64,000 bases of DNA from Acidimicrobiaceae bacterium. GTDB taxonomy: Bacteria > Actinomycetota > Acidimicrobiia > Acidimicrobiales > Aldehydirespiratoraceae. The stretch spans positions 4,642-68,641 of the forward strand of contig VXTM01000004.1 in NCBI GenBank assembly GCA_009837445.1. Reading direction: 5' to 3'. Below the pieces are notes generated by a model. It saw nothing but the letters and a program-made list of their open reading frames with translations, ran no database searches and had not been told where the DNA came from. Within the stretch, counting starts at the first letter, position 1, and each line of letters starts with the position of its first letter. This document shows positions 1 through 4,878 of the stretch, piece after piece. Made by a program: the position numbers and the translations under genes.

Positions 1-581
1 TGGTCCCGACGGGGGGTCTGAGCCAAACCCACTTTCGTCGCGCATTCTTGGGGCAATGGGCAGGACCGGACTCACCTGAGCTGCGCTTCAAATCGGCCTA
101 CAACCGGTTCAACCGCACGTGGCGAGAGCGATTCGGCTGGGCGCTGTTCAAGGAGCCAGAGCCTGATGATGTCCACGTCCTGCAGCGCCTTCGCATCCCG
201 CTGAACGACAGCCAACCAGAGTTCGAGGACCAAGTGATGGGTTCGGCAAAGGTCATGGTTGACGCCCTGAACGAGGTGGCCATCCAGGAGCAGCTCCCCA
301 CCAGGGTCAAAGGCGAGAAGGGCATCGGGAAGCTGGAGAGATGGATGGACCAGGAGGAGTATCCATCGGCTGAGCGTGACATCGCGTTCCTGCGACGGCT
401 TCAGCGACTCCGCAGCAAACTCACGGCGCACCGCAAAGGATCGGACTACGCCCAGGTGCTAAGGGACGAGAACGTTAATCCCGACCGCATCCAAGAAGTC
501 GCCACCATGCTCCAAGACGCCGAACGCCTCCTGTACAGCCTCGCCGCCCACGCCGGGATCGACCTAGACAGCTACTACTAA
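1..581 (+). CDS. hypothetical protein, 3' part of a gene running off the left edge; possible HEPN-like domain
   Basis: The frame of ORF 48..581 stays open back to nt 3, so the TTG at 48 is probably not the true start. The sequence looks helical and has an Rx4-6H-type motif, RSKLTAH (nt 411-431). The region is visibly lower in GC than the rest of the window. Confidence 0.45.
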   Translation, partial: VPTGGLSQTHFRRAFLGQWAGPDSPELRFKSAYNRFNRTWRERFGWALFKEPEPDDVHVLQRLRIPLNDSQPEFEDQVMGSAKVMVDALNEVAIQEQLPTRVKGEKGIGKLERWMDQEEYPSAERDIAFLRRLQRLRSKLTAHRKGSDYAQVLRDENVNPDRIQEVATMLQDAERLLYSLAAHAGIDLDSYY

Positions 582-669
582 AGGCCGACCCTGCCTCCTC
601 GACAGCCTCGGACATCGCCCCGAGGCCTGCTAGAGGTTGAACTGTCCGCCACCCGAAGGGAGCCACACG

Positions 670-1227
670 ATGCACGACGGCCAAGCTTCAACAGACGGTG
701 CCGAGGTGTGGGGTCAGATTCTCTTTGAAGCCCGCGAACTCCGAAACAAACAGGATGCTCGCCTCGCCACGGCCCAGCGCCAGTCACAGCTACTCGTAGC
801 CGGGTTCCTCGCGATAACCGCTCTAGTCCTCACCGCCATCTCCGTCTACGTTGCCTCTCAACCCGAAGCCGGCATCGAATCCCGCTTGACCGAGTGGCTC
901 TCGTCTACCGACTACGCGATCTTCCTCGTAACCTCCGTATTCGGACTAGTCGCGTTGTTCAACGGCTACGTGTGGGTCATCACCAACGTTTCGGCCCGAC
1001 GCCGAACGGAGACCCTAGACATCAATAAGCTCATGGACTTCTACAGCAGTTCGACTGCCCTCCCACATCTGCGACGGCACCTCGCGCGGACCCTCATAGC
1101 CCAGCACGACAAGAACGAACGCCCCGTGAAGAAGGCCCAGTCTCTCGTCCTGTTCCAAGCGATGACGACTTTCACCTTCTTCTATGCGCTGTTTGCCGCC
1201 GTCCTCATATTTGGAAGGCCCACGTGA
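670..1227 (+). CDS. hypothetical small membrane protein (about 3 TM helices)
   Basis: Lies in ORF 637..1227. The ATG at 670 has GAAGGGAG 7 nt upstream. Hydrophobic segments are LLVAGFLAITALVLTAISVYVA, YAIFLVTSVFGLVALFNGYVWVI and LFQAMTTFTFFYALFAAVLIFG. No family recognised. Confidence 0.55.
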   Translation: MHDGQASTDGAEVWGQILFEARELRNKQDARLATAQRQSQLLVAGFLAITALVLTAISVYVASQPEAGIESRLTEWLSSTDYAIFLVTSVFGLVALFNGYVWVITNVSARRRTETLDINKLMDFYSSSTALPHLRRHLARTLIAQHDKNERPVKKAQSLVLFQAMTTFTFFYALFAAVLIFGRPT

Positions 1228-1523
1228 CCACCAATCTCTCTCGCCCGAACCGGCCCCAGGACCCAAGCAGCACACGACGACACAAATAGCCGCCAGCGCT
1301 GGACCGCTGTCCACGCGCACCACATACTGGCCACGCGACACGGACACGCTGCTCTCACCGGCCGTCCATCAGGGCACACCGTGCAGGGCCACCACACAGA
1401 ATCGTATGCCGTCAACCATCGCGACCTAGGTGCCGTAATCCCGGTGCCCCTCGCCGCAGTCGCCACACGACCCGATCCGGGAGTGGCCGCTGGCGCGAAG
1501 CCCGCTGGACACCCAACACCTCG

Positions 1524-1541
1524 GCGAGAGTCGACTCTCGC
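1524..1541. other. 18-bp perfect palindrome GCGAGAGTCGACTCTCGC
   Basis: Read directly from the sequence. It sits in the coding-poor gap, 35 nt downstream of the stop of the doubtful minus-strand ORF. Confidence 0.6.
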
Positions 1542-1575
1542 GCCGCTGTGACCTTCGGGTTCTGGCAAACCGCCG

Positions 1576-2064
1576 CTAGAGACGGGTGTCGAGCGGCGGC
1601 ACCAGCAGCAGCGTGTCGGATGGGAGGTCCGCGGCTGCGTAGAGGGCATCAAGTACGGGTTGTAGATGCGGCTCCGGCGAGGAGAGGCCGTAGTACGCCG
1701 CCCGCCTGATGAGGCAGTGTTCCATCAGCCAGCAAGTGGCAAGTAGTGGCGTTACCCACCAACTGAGCTTCACGTTTAGGAAGCTCGTGGTAGAGCCGCT
1801 GTTGATGAGGCGCTTGGTTGAGTCCGCGCCAGGGTGGACGTCACAAGCACCCGGCTCGTTGGCTCCTTGATTGAGAGGCTTGACGGCGCATACTGCCCAC
1901 CCGGGCGAGTCGCCGAGTGGCGCGTGAGCCCGGCGTACGCAGACGCTGTGGGTACAGTGCGCTCCGTCTGGAGCACCCGACCCAGACCAGCCTCGCAGGA
2001 CGAGGGGGCCTAGCCGATGACTCTCGAGCCCGAGATTGAACGCCACGAGCCGACCCGGATTCAC
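1576..2064 (-). CDS. doubtful ORF (Cys/Trp/His-rich); possibly only the C-terminal part is real, or a gene remnant
   Basis: It is the only ORF of 60 aa or more in the 1228-2016 gap that does not look like pure antisense junk. It has a GTG start and overlaps the GIY-YIG start by 48 nt. An 18-bp palindrome lies 35 nt past its stop. No family recognised. Confidence 0.2.
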   Translation of the reverse strand: MNPGRLVAFNLGLESHRLGPLVLRGWSGSGAPDGAHCTHSVCVRRAHAPLGDSPGWAVCAVKPLNQGANEPGACDVHPGADSTKRLINSGSTTSFLNVKLSWWVTPLLATCWLMEHCLIRRAAYYGLSSPEPHLQPVLDALYAAADLPSDTLLLVPPLDTRL

Positions 2065-2595
2065 CTTCTATGGAGGGGTCCGCACACTTTTGGGGATGTC
2101 TTGGAAATGGTTGGCAAGACGGACTTCGGGATCTATCAGGTCTACGGTCCCCATCCAGCCAGCGGGACGGACTCCCTTCTCTACATCGGGCAGGCGAACG
2201 ATCAGACCTTCGGTGAAAGGTTCACAAACCACGACCGCCGGGAGTGGAGCCCCGACCCTTGGGGTGACAACACTATGCTGCTGCGGTTCTTCACGGGGCG
2301 GGTCCACTTGACGCAGCATGAGCAGGACCGGGGCGCCATCGATGACGAGTTGTGGGGAACGTATATCGACATGGCCGAGAGGCTCCTGATCTGCGTACAC
2401 GCCCCCCATTGGAACGCACAGGGCGTGCAGGGGATCAACCAAGAACAGACCGGTGACTTCGATGACTGCCACGTGCTCAATTGGGGAACCCGCGGATCGC
2501 TGTTGCCGGAGGTCTCCGGCGCTCGCCATGCTTGGAAGGAGTTCGAGCGAATCTGCGACGACCCACTTGAATGGACGACAAGTCAAGCCAACTGA
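2017..2595 (+). CDS. GIY-YIG nuclease-domain protein
   Basis: Motifs occur in canonical order: FGIYQVYG, then LLYIGQAN, then GERFTNH (Arg/His), then AERLLICVHAPHWN (Glu...Asn). The SD GAGGGGG precedes the ATG. A roughly 50-aa C-terminal extension is of unknown type. Confidence 0.7.
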   Translation: MTLEPEIERHEPTRIHLLWRGPHTFGDVLEMVGKTDFGIYQVYGPHPASGTDSLLYIGQANDQTFGERFTNHDRREWSPDPWGDNTMLLRFFTGRVHLTQHEQDRGAIDDELWGTYIDMAERLLICVHAPHWNAQGVQGINQEQTGDFDDCHVLNWGTRGSLLPEVSGARHAWKEFERICDDPLEWTTSQAN

Positions 2596-2608
2596 GGGTG
2601 GCGCCATA

Positions 2609-2785
2609 GTGACAACTGAACACGAGGCCGTCATCAAGATCTGTTGTTTGCGCGTGACGATGGGGAGCGCTGCCTACAAGGAGGCCGTCGTGGATGCGGT
2701 CGGGTCCGAGGTGTCACTCCGTAGGGTTGCCCGCGTGAGCGGCCTACACCGCGACACCATTACCCAACTGAGTCGATCCAGCTAG
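2609..2785 (+). CDS. small helix-turn-helix protein (about 58 aa)
   Basis: The GTG at 2609 is in frame with ORF 2453..2785 and is preceded by GAGGGTGG. It has an HTH-like segment, SLRRVARVSGLHRDTITQL. It is wedged between the GIY-YIG and protease genes with gaps of 13 nt on each side. Confidence 0.4.
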   Translation: MTTEHEAVIKICCLRVTMGSAAYKEAVVDAVGSEVSLRRVARVSGLHRDTITQLSRSS

Positions 2786-2798
2786 AGGGCTGCTCGTA

Positions 2799-4100
2799 GT
2801 GGTGAAGCGAGTCGTCCTAGGTGCACTATTCGTGGTTGCTGGGGGTGCCATCGGTGTCCTCGGCACAGAAGTCTGGGAGCGCTGGCGGGCCGACGAGGAC
2901 ACAGAGGACGCGACCCCGGTTGTCACCACACAGCCCACCACCGTTCCCTCAACCACCACTGCCCTACGGACAACCGCGGCAACCACGACAACTGTGACAC
3001 CTACGACAACTACGGCTGCGACCACGACAACGACCGTGCCCGCAAGCACAACGACCGTGGCTGGGTGCGACTTCGGGGACCACATGGAGCAAGTCACCAA
3101 CGGGGTGTGGCAGGTCAAGGCCGGCGATGGACGAGGCACCGCGTTCTATATCGGGGGCAGTGAGTGGCTGACCGCGGCCCATGTCGTTGGTGACGCCGAC
3201 ACCGTGACCCTCTACAACGGGACCGAAGCCGTGTCGGCAACGGTGGTGGGCAACGACACCCGTGTTGACTTGGCGCTACTACGTACCCGCGTTGGGGTTG
3301 GGGGCGCTCCGCTCGAGTTCACCACAAGCATCGAGCCACGAGCGGGTCAACCCGCCACCGTGGTGGGGTTCCCGCTGTACGACGCGGTGTCGGCCTCAGT
3401 CACCCGCGGGGTCGTGTCCCGCCTAGAGCACCCCCTGACGGGCACGGTGGTGGTAACCGACGCGGCGACCAACCCCGGCAACAGCGGTGGACCTCTTGTG
3501 GACGACTGCGGTCGTGTGCTGGGGGTGGTTGTCCGTAAGTACGTTGACGTAACCGTCGAGGGTTTGGGCTACGCGCTGGTTGCTTCCGAAGTCACCGAAC
3601 GGCTACCGGAGCTACGGCAGGGCCAACGGTCATCGACTTCGGCCACACTTGAACCCTGGTGGACCTTCCACACCAGGGCGCATGACCCCGCGGACCCCGA
3701 CCGAGAGTACTTCGCGCTCGCAATCACCCCAGCAACCAGATACAGCGGTCATCTAGGTGAGCCGCTCTATATCTCGCTTCGGTGTGATGGGTGGAGGCTG
3801 TCAGGGTTCTGGAGAATCACCGAGACCCCGGTGGTGACCGAGCACTGGTTCGACTTCCAGCGCCCAAGCGAGGCACATGAGGCGGTGTGGTCGCAAGTCA
3901 GCTTCAACCCGTACATGCTGGAGATGGCCCCATCGGAGGATGACCGGTTCACTGAGTCACTCCGTCAACACCCGTCAGCCTTGCAGTTCAGCCTTCAAGC
4001 CGAGTACGGAAACGGCAGGGTCATCGCCACGGCCACCTTCCCGCTTCGCAACTACCCCACGGCAAAGGAGTCCCTTGACCGACACTGCGCCACACAGTGA
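2799..4100 (+). CDS. membrane-anchored trypsin-like (S1/HtrA-type) serine protease with Thr-rich linker and an unassigned roughly 170-aa C-terminal domain
   Basis: N-terminal TM segment VVLGALFVVAGGAIGVLG. Catalytic triad contexts are LTAAHVV (His), DLALLR (Asp) and GNSGGPL (Ser). The C-terminal region after residue about 265 matches nothing I recognise. Confidence 0.85.
   Translation: MVKRVVLGALFVVAGGAIGVLGTEVWERWRADEDTEDATPVVTTQPTTVPSTTTALRTTAATTTTVTPTTTTAATTTTTVPASTTTVAGCDFGDHMEQVTNGVWQVKAGDGRGTAFYIGGSEWLTAAHVVGDADTVTLYNGTEAVSATVVGNDTRVDLALLRTRVGVGGAPLEFTTSIEPRAGQPATVVGFPLYDAVSASVTRGVVSRLEHPLTGTVVVTDAATNPGNSGGPLVDDCGRVLGVVVRKYVDVTVEGLGYALVASEVTERLPELRQGQRSSTSATLEPWWTFHTRAHDPADPDREYFALAITPATRYSGHLGEPLYISLRCDGWRLSGFWRITETPVVTEHWFDFQRPSEAHEAVWSQVSFNPYMLEMAPSEDDRFTESLRQHPSALQFSLQAEYGNGRVIATATFPLRNYPTAKESLDRHCATQ
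2921..3060 (+). repeat. Thr-rich low-complexity coding repeat (ACN-rich) forming the protease linker
   Basis: Translates to TTQPTTVPSTTTALRTTAATTTTVTPTTTTAATTTTTVPASTTTV. Confidence 0.8.
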
Positions 4101-4141
4101 GCGATCGCCCGCCGGGGCGGCGCACTGGCTCGGGATGATTC

Positions 4142-4167
4142 CTGACTAATCCGGTCGGAATAGTCAG
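4142..4167. promoter_or_regulatory. inverted repeat CTGACTA-N12-TAGTCAG upstream of the peroxiredoxin gene (candidate operator)
   Basis: Perfect 7-bp arms at 4142-4148 and 4161-4167, 49 nt upstream of the ATG at 4216, in an AT-richer spacer. Confidence 0.35.
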
Positions 4168-4215
4168 CATGGATGGCTAGCCTGTGGACAGTCCGCCAAT
4201 ATCGGAGGTAACCAC

Positions 4216-4878
4216 ATGGGCCTACGCATCAACGACACCGCTCCGGACTTCAACGCCGACACCACCGAGGGAGAGATCAACTTCCATGAGTGGATCGGCG
4301 ACGGATGGGCGCTGCTGTTCTCGCACCCGAAGGACTTCACCCCGGTCTGCACCACCGAGCTGGGCGCGGTTGCCGGTCTCAAGTCGGAGTTCGCCGCCCG
4401 CAACTGCAAGATCATCGGCATCAGCGTCGACGGCGTGAGCGACCATCACGGCTGGTCCGCCGACATCGAGACCGCCACCGGCAACGCCCTCAACTACCCG
4501 CTGATCGGCGACCCCGGGCTCAACGTGGTGAAGCTCTACGACATGCTCCCGGCCGACGCCGGCGACACGTCCGAGGGCCGCACCGCGGCCGACAACGCCA
4601 CCGCCCGCTCGGTGTTCATCATCGGCCCCGACAAGAAGATCAAGGCCTCCCTCACCTACCCGATGACCACCGGCCGAAACTTCGCCGAGATCCTGCGCCT
4701 GCTCGACTCGGTCCAGCTCACCGCCCACGAGCAGGTGGCCACCCCGGCCAACTGGAACCAGGGCGAGGACGTGATCATCGTCCCAGCCGTCTCCAACGAG
4801 GTCGCGGCCGAGAAGTACCCGGACGGCTGGAAGGCGCCGCTCCCCTACCTGCGGATCGTCCCGCAGCCCGGCACCTAA
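4216..4878 (+). CDS. 1-Cys peroxiredoxin (Prx6-type)
   Basis: FSHPKDFTPVCTTELG active-site context, 220 aa, SD GGAGG 7 nt upstream of the ATG. Confidence 0.95.
   Translation: MGLRINDTAPDFNADTTEGEINFHEWIGDGWALLFSHPKDFTPVCTTELGAVAGLKSEFAARNCKIIGISVDGVSDHHGWSADIETATGNALNYPLIGDPGLNVVKLYDMLPADAGDTSEGRTAADNATARSVFIIGPDKKIKASLTYPMTTGRNFAEILRLLDSVQLTAHEQVATPANWNQGEDVIIVPAVSNEVAAEKYPDGWKAPLPYLRIVPQPGT

What the first reader, a model, noticed from the sequence alone, without database searches (positions are those of the whole stretch)
2017..4100. Tightly spaced GIY-YIG nuclease / mini-HTH / membrane-anchored trypsin-like protease cassette
Three same-strand genes have gaps of 13 nt each, and each is preceded by a purine-rich SD.
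- A 192-aa protein with all GIY-YIG catalytic motifs (GIY, YIG, R..H, E....N) plus an unassigned C-terminal tail.
- A roughly 58-aa HTH protein.
- A TM-anchored S1/HtrA-type protease with an intact His/Asp/Ser triad. Its roughly 170-aa C-terminal domain (SSTSATLEPWW...HCATQ) matches nothing I recognise.

I do not know this nuclease, regulator and surface protease combination as a described system, and it sits in the lower-GC patch. It could be a mobile-element remnant or a defence/competition module. Against a classical intracellular defence effector, the protease appears extracytoplasmic (TM plus Thr-rich linker).
Basis: partly seen in the sequence, partly recalled or inferred. Interest (0 to 1): 0.6.

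Follow-up and report, generated by a model that had tools for sequence, protein, structure and literature searches.

The report
Chance neighbours in a genomic island
The three tightly spaced genes are real, but they are unrelated accessory genes (a stand-alone nuclease-like gene, and a cell-surface protease with a decaying small reading frame in its leader) that happen to abut in one strain's variable island, not a conserved three-gene system.

Summary
The ORFs, the two 13-nt gaps, the purine-rich SD-like sites, the TM anchor and the His/Asp/Ser triad are all in the sequence as described. The cassette reading fails its own refutation test.

- **No co-occurrence.** None of 88 loci with a homologue of the 192-aa protein has the protease within 5-6 kb. 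None of 8 protease loci has the 192-aa gene. In the one other same-genus genome that holds both, they lie 300 kb apart.
- **Two DNA modules.** DNA homology to relatives falls into two blocks that meet at window 2603-2629.
  - Block A (about 1896-2603) is a solitary gene of a widespread family without a Pfam or NCBIfam match, found in 207 species genomes. It is probably a divergent GIY-YIG nuclease, with no conserved partner and frequent pseudogenes.
  - Block B (about 2629-4101) is the protease gene plus a leader of about 170 nt that contains the "mini-HTH" ORF.
- **The mini-HTH is not a conserved gene.** It is frameshifted or truncated in most relatives, shows no third-codon-position bias and matches no HTH profile significantly.
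- **The protease.** It is an N-in/C-out, PDZ-less HtrA/MarP-like surface protease with a rare C-terminal domain. Its closest protease domains sit in SLH-domain surface proteins.
- **Setting.** Everything lies at the end of a low-GC island of at least 9 kb, between tRNA-Ser(CGA) and a peroxiredoxin gene. One relative has an empty site there.

Another reader of this scan noted the same nuclease-like family, also as an orphan gene, in a different genome. Overall the finding is ordinary and of low interest.

The parts
1..4136 (.). Window part of a low-GC accessory island. It continues upstream to the start of contig C26 and, across an IS-like repeat at the contig break, to tRNA-Ser(CGA) on contig C35.
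   Evidence: GC is 60-65% against 70-73%. Homology to same-genus relatives resumes at window 4131-4138. The left core flank and tRNA-Ser(CGA) are at C35:161-250. The site is empty in G011, with 28 nt between the tRNA and the peroxiredoxin flank.
1896..2016 (+). Upstream region that travels with the nuclease-like gene (presumed promoter and 5' UTR with SD GAGGGGG).
   Evidence: blastn homology to L002-L004 starts at 1896 or 1932. The 59-aa ORF at 1834-2013 has no homologue.
2017..2595 (+). g1: solitary 192-aa protein, probably a divergent GIY-YIG nuclease (Y40, Y56, G58, R68, R95, E121, N133), with a conserved C-terminal HVLNWG...LLPEVSGAR motif.
   Evidence: 106 homologues. Conserved columns. 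Weak hits of 17, 5 and 4 of 85 members to GIY_YIG_2, Eco29kI and GIY-YIG. hhalign against UvrC-type GIY-YIG domains gives E 7e-5 with the motifs in register, above 60 shuffles. AF2 pLDDT 87 with beta-beta-alpha-beta-alpha order.
2603..2629 (.). Junction between the two independently inherited DNA modules.
   Evidence: Homology to g1 loci ends at 2603. Homology to protease loci begins at 2629 to 2679.
2609..2785 (+). g2: 58-aa ORF (41 aa from ATG 2660). It is a relic of a 53-aa (54-codon) HTH-like ORF inside the protease leader, with its N-terminal part shifted by a 1-nt insertion.
   Evidence: The ORF is intact only in L094. It is frameshifted in L010/L011 (1 nt) and in L012 and L133 (4-nt deletion), 5'-truncated in L131, and absent from L013 and L132. 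Substitutions are spread evenly over codon positions, 36/32/32 pooled. No significant HTH profile hit.
2629..2798 (+). Leader conserved with the protease gene in 5 of 7 distinct relative loci. It contains the invariant TAGGGTTGCCCGCGTGAG and the SD AGAGGG.
2799..4100 (+). g3: 433-aa membrane-anchored extracytoplasmic S1 (HtrA/MarP-like, PDZ-less) serine protease.
   Evidence: Trypsin_2 E 9e-26. Triad H128/D157/S229 aligned to Deg9. Strong third-position substitution bias.
2811..2867 (+). N-terminal signal anchor (residues 5-23).
   Evidence: Kyte-Doolittle maximum of 2.2 for the window starting at residue 5. MVKR precedes it and the acidic TEVWERWRADEDTED follows.
3135..3527 (+). Trypsin_2 protease domain (residues 113-243).
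3645..4097 (+). Rare C-terminal domain (residues 283-433) with invariant Cys329 and Cys430. Predicted beta-rich; fold unassigned.
   Evidence: Only 10 clusters among 5.8 billion proteins and 3 full-length representatives among 1.84 billion. AF2 pLDDT 55. Weak beta-sandwich matches only.

Best explanation
The three ORFs are not one system. They are the last 2.1 kb of a low-GC accessory island of at least 9 kb, inserted between tRNA-Ser(CGA) and a peroxiredoxin gene. In it, two unrelated gene modules have come to abut.

**Module A (about 1896-2603)**
- It is a stand-alone gene of a widespread, unannotated family that is most likely a divergent GIY-YIG nuclease.
- Inferred mechanism: metal-dependent DNA cleavage by the Tyr40/Tyr56/Arg68/Glu121/Asn133 site.
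- It has no conserved partner and turns over quickly, with a patchy distribution and many pseudogenes.
- Its role is therefore either an accessory-genome nuclease (defence against foreign DNA) or a selfish gene.

**Module B (about 2629-4101)**
- It is a protease gene with its own leader.
- The product is inserted N-in/C-out by an uncleaved signal anchor.
- It is held off the membrane by a Thr-rich stalk, and it cuts envelope or extracellular proteins with a His128/Asp157/Ser229 triad.
- A lineage-restricted C-terminal domain, probably disulphide-braced, stands where HtrA proteases carry PDZ domains. It presumably binds the substrate or target.

**The 'mini-HTH' ORF**
- It is a decaying remnant of a small ORF in the protease leader.
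- Its 13-nt spacing from the nuclease gene is an accident of the junction.

**Status of the steps**
- Shown: gene structures, independence of the modules, island setting, decay of g2, purifying selection on g3.
- Inferred: nuclease activity, protease topology and all biological roles.
For: **Independence of the modules**
- No g3-like sequence lies within 5-6 kb of any of 88 g1-family loci, and g1 is absent from 8 protease loci.
- The homology blocks are 1896-2603 and 2629-4101.
- In G002 (which by coordinates matches the Ca. Aldehydirespirator contig CBDBEL010000004.1) the two genes are 300 kb apart.
- No neighbour family is shared beyond close synteny, and there is no conserved small downstream ORF.

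**Varied contexts of g1**
- KAP NTPase and nSTAND genes.
- An integrase with DUF2398/DUF3323/DUF2399 genes.
- cas3.
- A ribosomal-protein operon.
- An ICE-like region.
- A housekeeping operon.

**g1 as GIY-YIG:**

**g1 turnover**
- It is found in 10 of 39 genus genomes. About 5 of 13 copies are truncated or carry stops.

**g2 decay:**, against the codon-position bias of g3.

**g3 as a surface protease**
- The closest protease domains (about 50% identity) sit in SLH-domain proteins.
- Four conserved Cys are present.

**Island:**
Against: - Adjacency with 13-nt gaps, and no predicted terminator between the genes, means the three ORFs may well be co-transcribed in this strain. A strain-specific functional link therefore cannot be excluded.
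- The GIY-YIG assignment rests on sub-threshold evidence.
  - There is no Pfam or NCBIfam hit for the protein itself.
  - The profile finds no PDB sequence match.
  - Foldseek finds no PDB match with E below 0.3 for a confident model.
- The leader keeps an invariant 18-mer and roughly 80% identity, so it may have a regulatory function that I did not identify.
- The neighbourhood sampling covers up to 5-7 kb on each side of the gene, less where a contig ends.
Confidence: 0.85

Rival explanations
1. This is a newly assembled but functional three-gene operon, for defence or competition. The nuclease, the small regulator and the surface protease are co-transcribed and work together in this strain only.
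For: The 13-nt gaps, the shared strand, SD-like sites before each ORF and the absence of a predicted terminator between them. The island also carries a DUF4238 protein.
Against: There is no co-occurrence anywhere else. The junction of two independent homology blocks falls between g1 and g2. g2 is decaying. A cytoplasmic nuclease and an extracytoplasmic protease have no evident common substrate.
Confidence: 0.06
2. g2 is a functional small HTH regulator, for example an autoregulator of the protease module. It is retained where its frame is open (the window and L094).
For: The C-terminal peptide RVAR(V/M)SGLHR(D/N)TI..L is kept in 5 of 6 leaders. Three independent sub-threshold hits all fall on HTH regions. 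The leader travels with the protease in 5 of 7 distinct relative loci.
Against: Frameshifts or truncation occur in 4 of 5 distinct relative leaders, and the window's own N-terminal half is out of the ancestral frame. Substitutions are equal at the three codon positions, and leader divergence of 16-25% is about that of the protease's third positions. The ORF is absent from two protease loci.
Confidence: 0.15
3. g1 is not a nuclease. The GIY-YIG-like motifs are convergent, and the family has another, non-catalytic or different enzymatic function.
For: No profile or structure search reaches significance for the protein itself. The GIY-to-YIG spacer is 15 residues rather than the usual 10-11 (my own knowledge). 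The family is absent from 50,697 phage records, where GIY-YIG homing enzymes abound (the abundance is my own knowledge).
Against: All five catalytic positions are invariant or nearly so, and they align in register with UvrC-type domains at E 7e-5. The E-to-N spacing of 12 residues is identical. Weak hits go to three different GIY-YIG clan models and to no other clan repeatedly. The predicted secondary-structure order fits. The best viral structure matches include an annotated endonuclease.
Confidence: 0.15

Closest known systems
GIY-YIG nuclease superfamily (UvrC N-terminal domain, I-TevI, Eco29kI; Pfam PF01541, PF20815, PF09517)
   Same: The motif order is GIY ... YIG ... R ... E ... N, with E and N 12 residues apart as in the UvrC-type domains. 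The predicted order is beta-beta-alpha-beta-alpha. It is a small stand-alone protein. The profile-profile alignment places all motifs in register.
   Different: It does not reach any curated model's threshold. The hairpin between GIY and YIG is 15 residues. It has an extra N-terminal strand (I15, W19, G21-P22) and a conserved C-terminal HVLNWG...LLPEVSGAR segment. It has no DNA-binding or methyltransferase partner.
PADLOC candidate PDC-S14 (an untested single-gene defence candidate)
   Same: 15 of 85 family members give a weak match, best E 4e-5, over the GIY-YIG motif region.
   Different: The match covers only about 45 of the 320 profile positions, so this is not the same family. The three papers that mention PDC-S14 do not have it in title or abstract, and I did not read them.
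HtrA/DegP/DegS (MEROPS S1C) and mycobacterial MarP (Rv3671c)
   Same: It has a chymotrypsin-fold domain with the His/Asp/Ser triad and the GNSGGP motif. The location is extracytoplasmic. The best PDB sequence matches are Deg9, HtrA, DegS and Rv3671c.
   Different: There is no PDZ domain. It has one signal anchor rather than four TM helices (the MarP TM count is from my own knowledge). Scores of 71-78 bits lie far below the family cut-offs of 250-470 bits. The C-terminal domain is unique.
SLH-domain cell-surface trypsin-like proteases
   Same: These carry the closest protease domains, at about 50% identity, and are also surface-displayed.
   Different: They are anchored by SLH domains. g3 is anchored by a TM helix and a Thr-rich stalk, and it carries a different C-terminal domain.
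tRNA-linked genomic islands and defence islands
   Same: The island is low-GC and starts at the 3' end of tRNA-Ser(CGA). A relative has an empty site. The cargo includes a DUF4238 protein and a protein that another reader flagged as HEPN-like. An IS-like repeat lies inside.
   Different: No integrase and no direct repeat of the tRNA end were found in the assembled part. The island is cut by a contig break.

Membership tests
GIY-YIG nuclease superfamily | GIY and YIG motifs on a beta-hairpin, usually 10-11 residues apart | tested here: inconclusive
   G38-I39-Y40 and Y56-I57-G58 are present and conserved (G38, Y56 and G58 invariant; Y40 in at least 90%). The spacer is 15 residues.
GIY-YIG nuclease superfamily | Conserved Arg after YIG, a catalytic Glu on the second helix, and an Asn about 12 residues later | tested here: met
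   R68 is in at least 90% of members, and E121 and N133 are invariant in 85. They align with the R, E and N of UvrC-type domains.
GIY-YIG nuclease superfamily | Match to a curated family model above its threshold | tested here: not met
   g1 has no hit at E <= 1. Among 85 homologues, 17 give weak GIY_YIG_2 hits (best E 0.0026), 5 Eco29kI and 4 GIY-YIG.
GIY-YIG nuclease superfamily | Three-stranded sheet with a beta-beta-alpha-beta-alpha fold | tested here: inconclusive
GIY-YIG nuclease superfamily | Nuclease activity | not testable with these tools
   Needs a biochemical assay.
HtrA/DegP (S1C) proteases | Chymotrypsin-fold domain with a His-Asp-Ser triad | tested here: met
   Trypsin_2 E 9e-26. 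H128, D157 and S229 align to Deg9.
HtrA/DegP (S1C) proteases | One or two C-terminal PDZ domains | tested here: not met
   No PDZ hit. The C-terminal 150 aa match nothing, and homologues exist only in about 10-13 clusters.
MarP family protease | NCBIfam NF033740 above its cut-off; multi-pass N-terminal membrane domain | tested here: not met
   71 bits against a cut-off of 250. There is a single hydrophobic segment.
Helix-turn-helix regulator (g2) | Significant match to an HTH model and a conserved reading frame | tested here: not met
   The best hits are E 0.11-0.17. The frame is broken in most relatives, and there is no codon-position bias.
Known or candidate anti-phage systems (PADLOC 2.0) | All components match one system's models | tested here: not met
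   Only domain-level hits were found. PDC-S14 gives 17 bits on 45 residues. RT-Protease_XI and Avs1b match the trypsin domain only.
Conserved multi-gene module (operon or system) | Recurrent co-location of the components in unrelated genomes | tested here: not met
   0 of 88 and 0 of 8 loci. There are no conserved neighbours.
Integrase-mediated tRNA-linked island | tRNA at one end, an integrase, and a direct repeat of the tRNA 3' end at the other end | tested here: inconclusive
   The tRNA-Ser(CGA) boundary and an empty site were found. No integrase domain is present in the assembled 8.8 kb. The best repeat is 8 nt. Part of the island is unassembled.

The most novel reading that the evidence does not exclude
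The 192-aa family is a new, widespread class of solitary GIY-YIG-type nuclease. It is found in at least 207 species across Actinomycetota, Bacillota, Pseudomonadota, Planctomycetota, Acidobacteriota, Verrucomicrobiota and other phyla, and no curated model covers it. It would act on its own, either as a single-gene barrier against foreign DNA or as a gene-sized selfish endonuclease that spreads between chromosomes with only its SD site and terminator.
Probability: 0.25. Interest if true: 0.55.

Novelty: new member of a known kind. Interest (0 to 1): 0.22.

Why it matters
Tight spacing in a variable island produced the appearance of a system where there is none, so no defence or competition module should be catalogued here.

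Two modest leads remain.
- A widespread, unannotated GIY-YIG-like family has no partner gene and a high rate of decay. It would be cheap to test for nuclease activity and phage or plasmid exclusion, for example with the Bacillus or Planococcus homologues.
- A mobile surface protease carries a C-terminal domain restricted to marine and sponge-associated Acidimicrobiia. Its closest relatives are S-layer-anchored proteases, which may bear on surface remodelling in these symbionts.

Tried and rejected
- **Curated libraries.** Pfam, NCBIfam, PHROGs and PADLOC scans of g1 and g2 gave nothing significant.
- **PDB by sequence.** The g1 profile found no relative.
- **Structure search for g1.** Foldseek of a confident g1 model against the PDB gave only noise. 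BFVD matches were marginal.
- **Structure of the g3 C-terminal domain.** Only 8 close sequences were available, and the model was poor (pLDDT 55). The weak IalB and FN3-like matches (E about 0.02) should not be relied on.
- **Leader 18-mer.** I searched the metagenome and genome collections for the invariant leader 18-mer to collect more leaders. The 36 hits were, apart from one known locus, 21-34-nt matches with no extended similarity, at about the number expected by chance.
- **Shared flanking genes.** I asked whether L094's 586-aa and 203-aa upstream ORFs match the window's 582-aa and 196-aa genes, which would have implied that g1 was inserted into an older arrangement. There is no homology.
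- **Upstream partner for g1.** The 59-aa ORF at 1834-2013 is not conserved.
- **IS or integron structure around g1.** In the Planococcus homologues only the SD site and a terminator hairpin travel with the gene. There are no inverted repeats.
- **Phage collection.** It has no g1 homologue. Plasmids hold only six, all on Bacillus megaplasmids and annotated as hypothetical.
- **Promoter, terminator and repeat scans** of 1200-4300 found nothing. Rfam gave only sub-threshold noise.
- **Literature.** Searches for PF20815/GIY_YIG_2 found nothing. PDC-S14 appears in three papers, none in title or abstract, and I did not read them.
Full report
**1. What is in the sequence**

The window holds three same-strand ORFs:
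- g1 at 2017-2595 (192 aa, ATG)
- g2 at 2609-2785 (58 aa from GTG; 41 aa from ATG 2660)
- g3 at 2799-4100 (433 aa, GTG)

Both gaps are exactly 13 nt. Each start is preceded by a purine-rich SD-like site: GAGGGGG, GAGGGTGG and AGAGGG. GC is 60-65% here against 70-73% further along the window.

g3 has these features:
- It matches Trypsin_2 over residues 113-243 (E 9e-26).
- H128, D157 and S229 align with the catalytic residues of Deg9 and HtrA.
- One hydrophobic segment lies at residues 5-23. MVKR precedes it and an acidic stretch follows, which suggests an N-in, C-out orientation.
- The linker at residues 31-95 has 28 Thr in 65 residues.
- It has four Cys (90, 237, 329, 430), which are also present in the relatives at 50-82% identity that I read.

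The descriptive part of the finding therefore holds.

**2. The three genes do not travel together**

g1 has 106 homologues in the 5.8-billion-protein set, and 207 GTDB species genomes encode a relative. I fetched 88 loci with 5-6 kb on each side.
- None contains anything like g3, not even a trypsin domain at E <= 1e-3.
- All-against-all comparison of neighbouring ORFs found no family shared beyond closely syntenic loci.
- No conserved small ORF lies directly downstream.

Conversely, the protease with its C-terminal domain is rare.
- It occurs in three full-length representative clusters among 1.84 billion proteins, and in ten 90%-identity clusters.
- None of its 8 loci (L010-L013, L094, L131-L133) carries g1.

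Within the genus (39 species genomes):
- g1 relatives occur in 10.
- The protease's C-terminal domain occurs in 3.
- Two genomes have both. Only the window's genome has them adjacent. In G002 they lie at 362.5 kb and 662.8 kb of one contig. The same pair appears as L094 and L019 on a Ca. Aldehydirespirator contig.

**3. Two DNA modules with a junction between g1 and g2**

- blastn of the window against the g1 loci aligns 1896/1932-2603.
- Against the protease loci it aligns 2629, 2659, 2664 or 2679 to 4101.
- g1 therefore comes with about 100 nt of upstream sequence and ends 8 nt after its stop codon.
- The protease comes with a leader of 120-170 nt that contains most of g2.
- The first 13-nt gap lies in the junction, where g2's frame happens to stay open back to a GTG.

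**4. g2 is a relic**

Alignment of six leaders shows the following:
- An intact 53-aa ORF (54 codons with the stop) exists only in L094. Its product is MTDRIDREAELHAVERCRQEAVVDAIRSRGSLCRVARVSVLHRDTLVELSRSV.
- L010 and L011 carry a 1-nt deletion.
- L012 and L133 share a 4-nt deletion.
- L131 is 5'-truncated.
- The window has a 1-nt insertion that puts everything upstream of KEAVV in another frame.
- L013 and L132 lack the leader.

Substitutions against the window are spread evenly over the codon positions (pooled 36/32/32). In the protease ORF they are strongly third-position biased, for example 13/8/51 and 32/27/89. Leader divergence of 16-25% is about that of the protease's third positions.

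No HTH model is matched significantly. The best hits are E 0.11-0.17, although all fall on HTH regions.

The invariant TAGGGTTGCCCGCGTGAG suggests some cis function, but I could not define it. Exact matches elsewhere occur at about the number chance predicts.

**5. What g1 is**

Evidence for a GIY-YIG nuclease:
- In 85 homologues the invariant or near-invariant columns include Y40, Y56, G58, R68, G94, R95, E121, P130 and N133. There is also a C-terminal H152-N155-W156-G157 ... P164-E165-V166-S167-G168-R170 block.
- g1 itself hits no curated model. Among the 85 members, however, 17 hit GIY_YIG_2, 5 hit Eco29kI and 4 hit GIY-YIG weakly.
- I built an alignment of 27 bona fide GIY-YIG domains (UvrC and Cho type), located with PF01541 in 40 other genomes of the phylum.
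- hhalign of the g1 family against that alignment gave 63% probability and E 7e-5 over 76 columns. GIY, YIG, R, E and N are all in register, and the E-to-N distance is the same.
- The controls scored lower than the real score of 33.7: 60 column-shuffled templates reached at most 25.2, the reversed template 24.7 and an unrelated alignment 10.
- The AF2 model is confident (pLDDT 87, pTM 0.83) and has the beta-beta-alpha-beta-alpha order, with extra strands on both sides.

Evidence against, or inconclusive:
- Foldseek finds nothing in the PDB.
- BFVD matches are only marginal and include a mycobacteriophage endonuclease.

I rate the GIY-YIG assignment at about 0.8.

The biological role is open. 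The facts that bear on it are these:
- Contexts range from defence or mobile neighbourhoods (KAP NTPase with nSTAND genes; an integrase with DUF2398/DUF3323/DUF2399 genes; cas3; ICE genes) to ribosomal and housekeeping operons.
- The window's genome has a second copy (62% identity) at C5:106234-106797, beside cas3.
- About 5 of 13 genus copies are truncated or carry stops.
- In Planococcus only the SD site, the ORF and a terminator hairpin are shared between different sites.
- The family is absent from 50,697 phage records and present on six Bacillus megaplasmids as 'hypothetical protein'.

**6. What g3 is**

- The protease domain is HtrA/MarP-like, but far below those families' cut-offs and without a PDZ domain.
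- Its nearest relatives, at about 50% identity, are in proteins with S-layer homology domains. This fits surface display.
- PADLOC hits (RT-Protease_XI, Avs1b) reflect the shared trypsin domain only.
- The C-terminal 150 residues are unique to this small group. The fold prediction was too poor to assign.
- The gene is under purifying selection.
- Like g1, it sits in different accessory contexts: an integrase with AbiEii; SNF2 and UvrD-type helicases; IS110 with an HNH gene; HicB; AlpA with a transposase.

**7. The setting**

- The window starts 4,641 nt into contig C26, and the low-GC stretch runs from the contig start to window about 4136.
- Upstream cargo includes a DUF4238 protein, a 582-aa protein (another reader flagged its C-terminus as HEPN-like; I did not test this) and a 196-aa membrane protein.
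- Same-genus genomes align again from window 4131-4138.
- The left core flank and tRNA-Ser(CGA) are on contig C35, at positions 161-250.
- In G011 the tRNA is followed after 28 nt by the peroxiredoxin upstream region, which is an empty site. G006, G008 and G018 carry 1.1, 4.8 and 8.7 kb there.
- The G008 segment has native-like GC3, so the site is variable rather than strictly a mobile-element hotspot.
- Both contig ends carry 55-nt ends shared with other contigs, and these ends are inverted repeats of each other. This indicates a collapsed IS copy inside the island.
- I found no integrase and no tRNA-end direct repeat.

**8. Verdict**

The region is ordinary accessory-island cargo, made of two independent modules and a decaying small ORF. 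The nuclease-like family is an unannotated member of a known superfamily, and the protease is a variant of a known kind.

Noticed in passing
G000 contig C5:106234-106797 (L150:3235-3804): A second, intact copy of the GIY-YIG-like family (62% identical to g1) lies in the same genome. It sits about 1.1 kb upstream of a cas3 gene. The context is 99.9% identical to the metagenome contig L005.
   Followed up: partly
G000 C26:1-55 and C35:1-55 (upstream of the window): The two contig ends that flank the unassembled part of the island are inverted repeats of each other (GTGT.ACACA.C.ACCGGAGCCAAC). Each is shared at 100% with another contig end (C48, C16) and at 89-94% with internal sites (C7, C39, C4). 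This is probably a collapsed multi-copy IS element.
   Followed up: partly
G000 C35:161-250; window about 4131-4137: The interval between tRNA-Ser(CGA) and the peroxiredoxin gene is a variable site in the genus. It spans 28 nt in G011, 1.1 kb in G006, 4.8 kb in G008, 8.7 kb in G018 and at least 9 kb in the window's genome.
   Followed up: yes
window 4142-4167: The CTGACTA-N12-TAGTCAG dyad that another reader noted is also present in G011, which lacks the island. It therefore belongs to the conserved peroxiredoxin upstream region, not to the island or to the protease's 3' end.
   Followed up: partly
L009:6001-6579 (GCA_965243675.1): A g1 homologue (65% identity) sits with three other non-ribosomal genes between rpsJ (S10) and rplC (L3). 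This is an unusual interruption of the S10 ribosomal-protein operon.
   Followed up: no
L001:1815-2927 (-) and L001:3474-5222 (+), upstream of and overlapping window 1-581: The island also carries a DUF4238 protein (Pfam E 3e-20; weak PADLOC DUF4238-Pers hit). A 582-aa protein without any family match is followed by a 196-aa membrane protein. No homologues of these were found in the protease loci.
   Followed up: partly
genus genomes G016, G073, G002, G078, G074: Several g1-family copies in the genus are truncated, split or carry an in-frame TAG. This indicates rapid decay of the gene.
   Followed up: no
window 2720-2737 and leaders of L010, L012, L094, L133: An invariant 18-mer, TAGGGTTGCCCGCGTGAG, lies inside an otherwise freely diverging leader. 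No function is assigned, and Rfam finds nothing there.
   Followed up: partly
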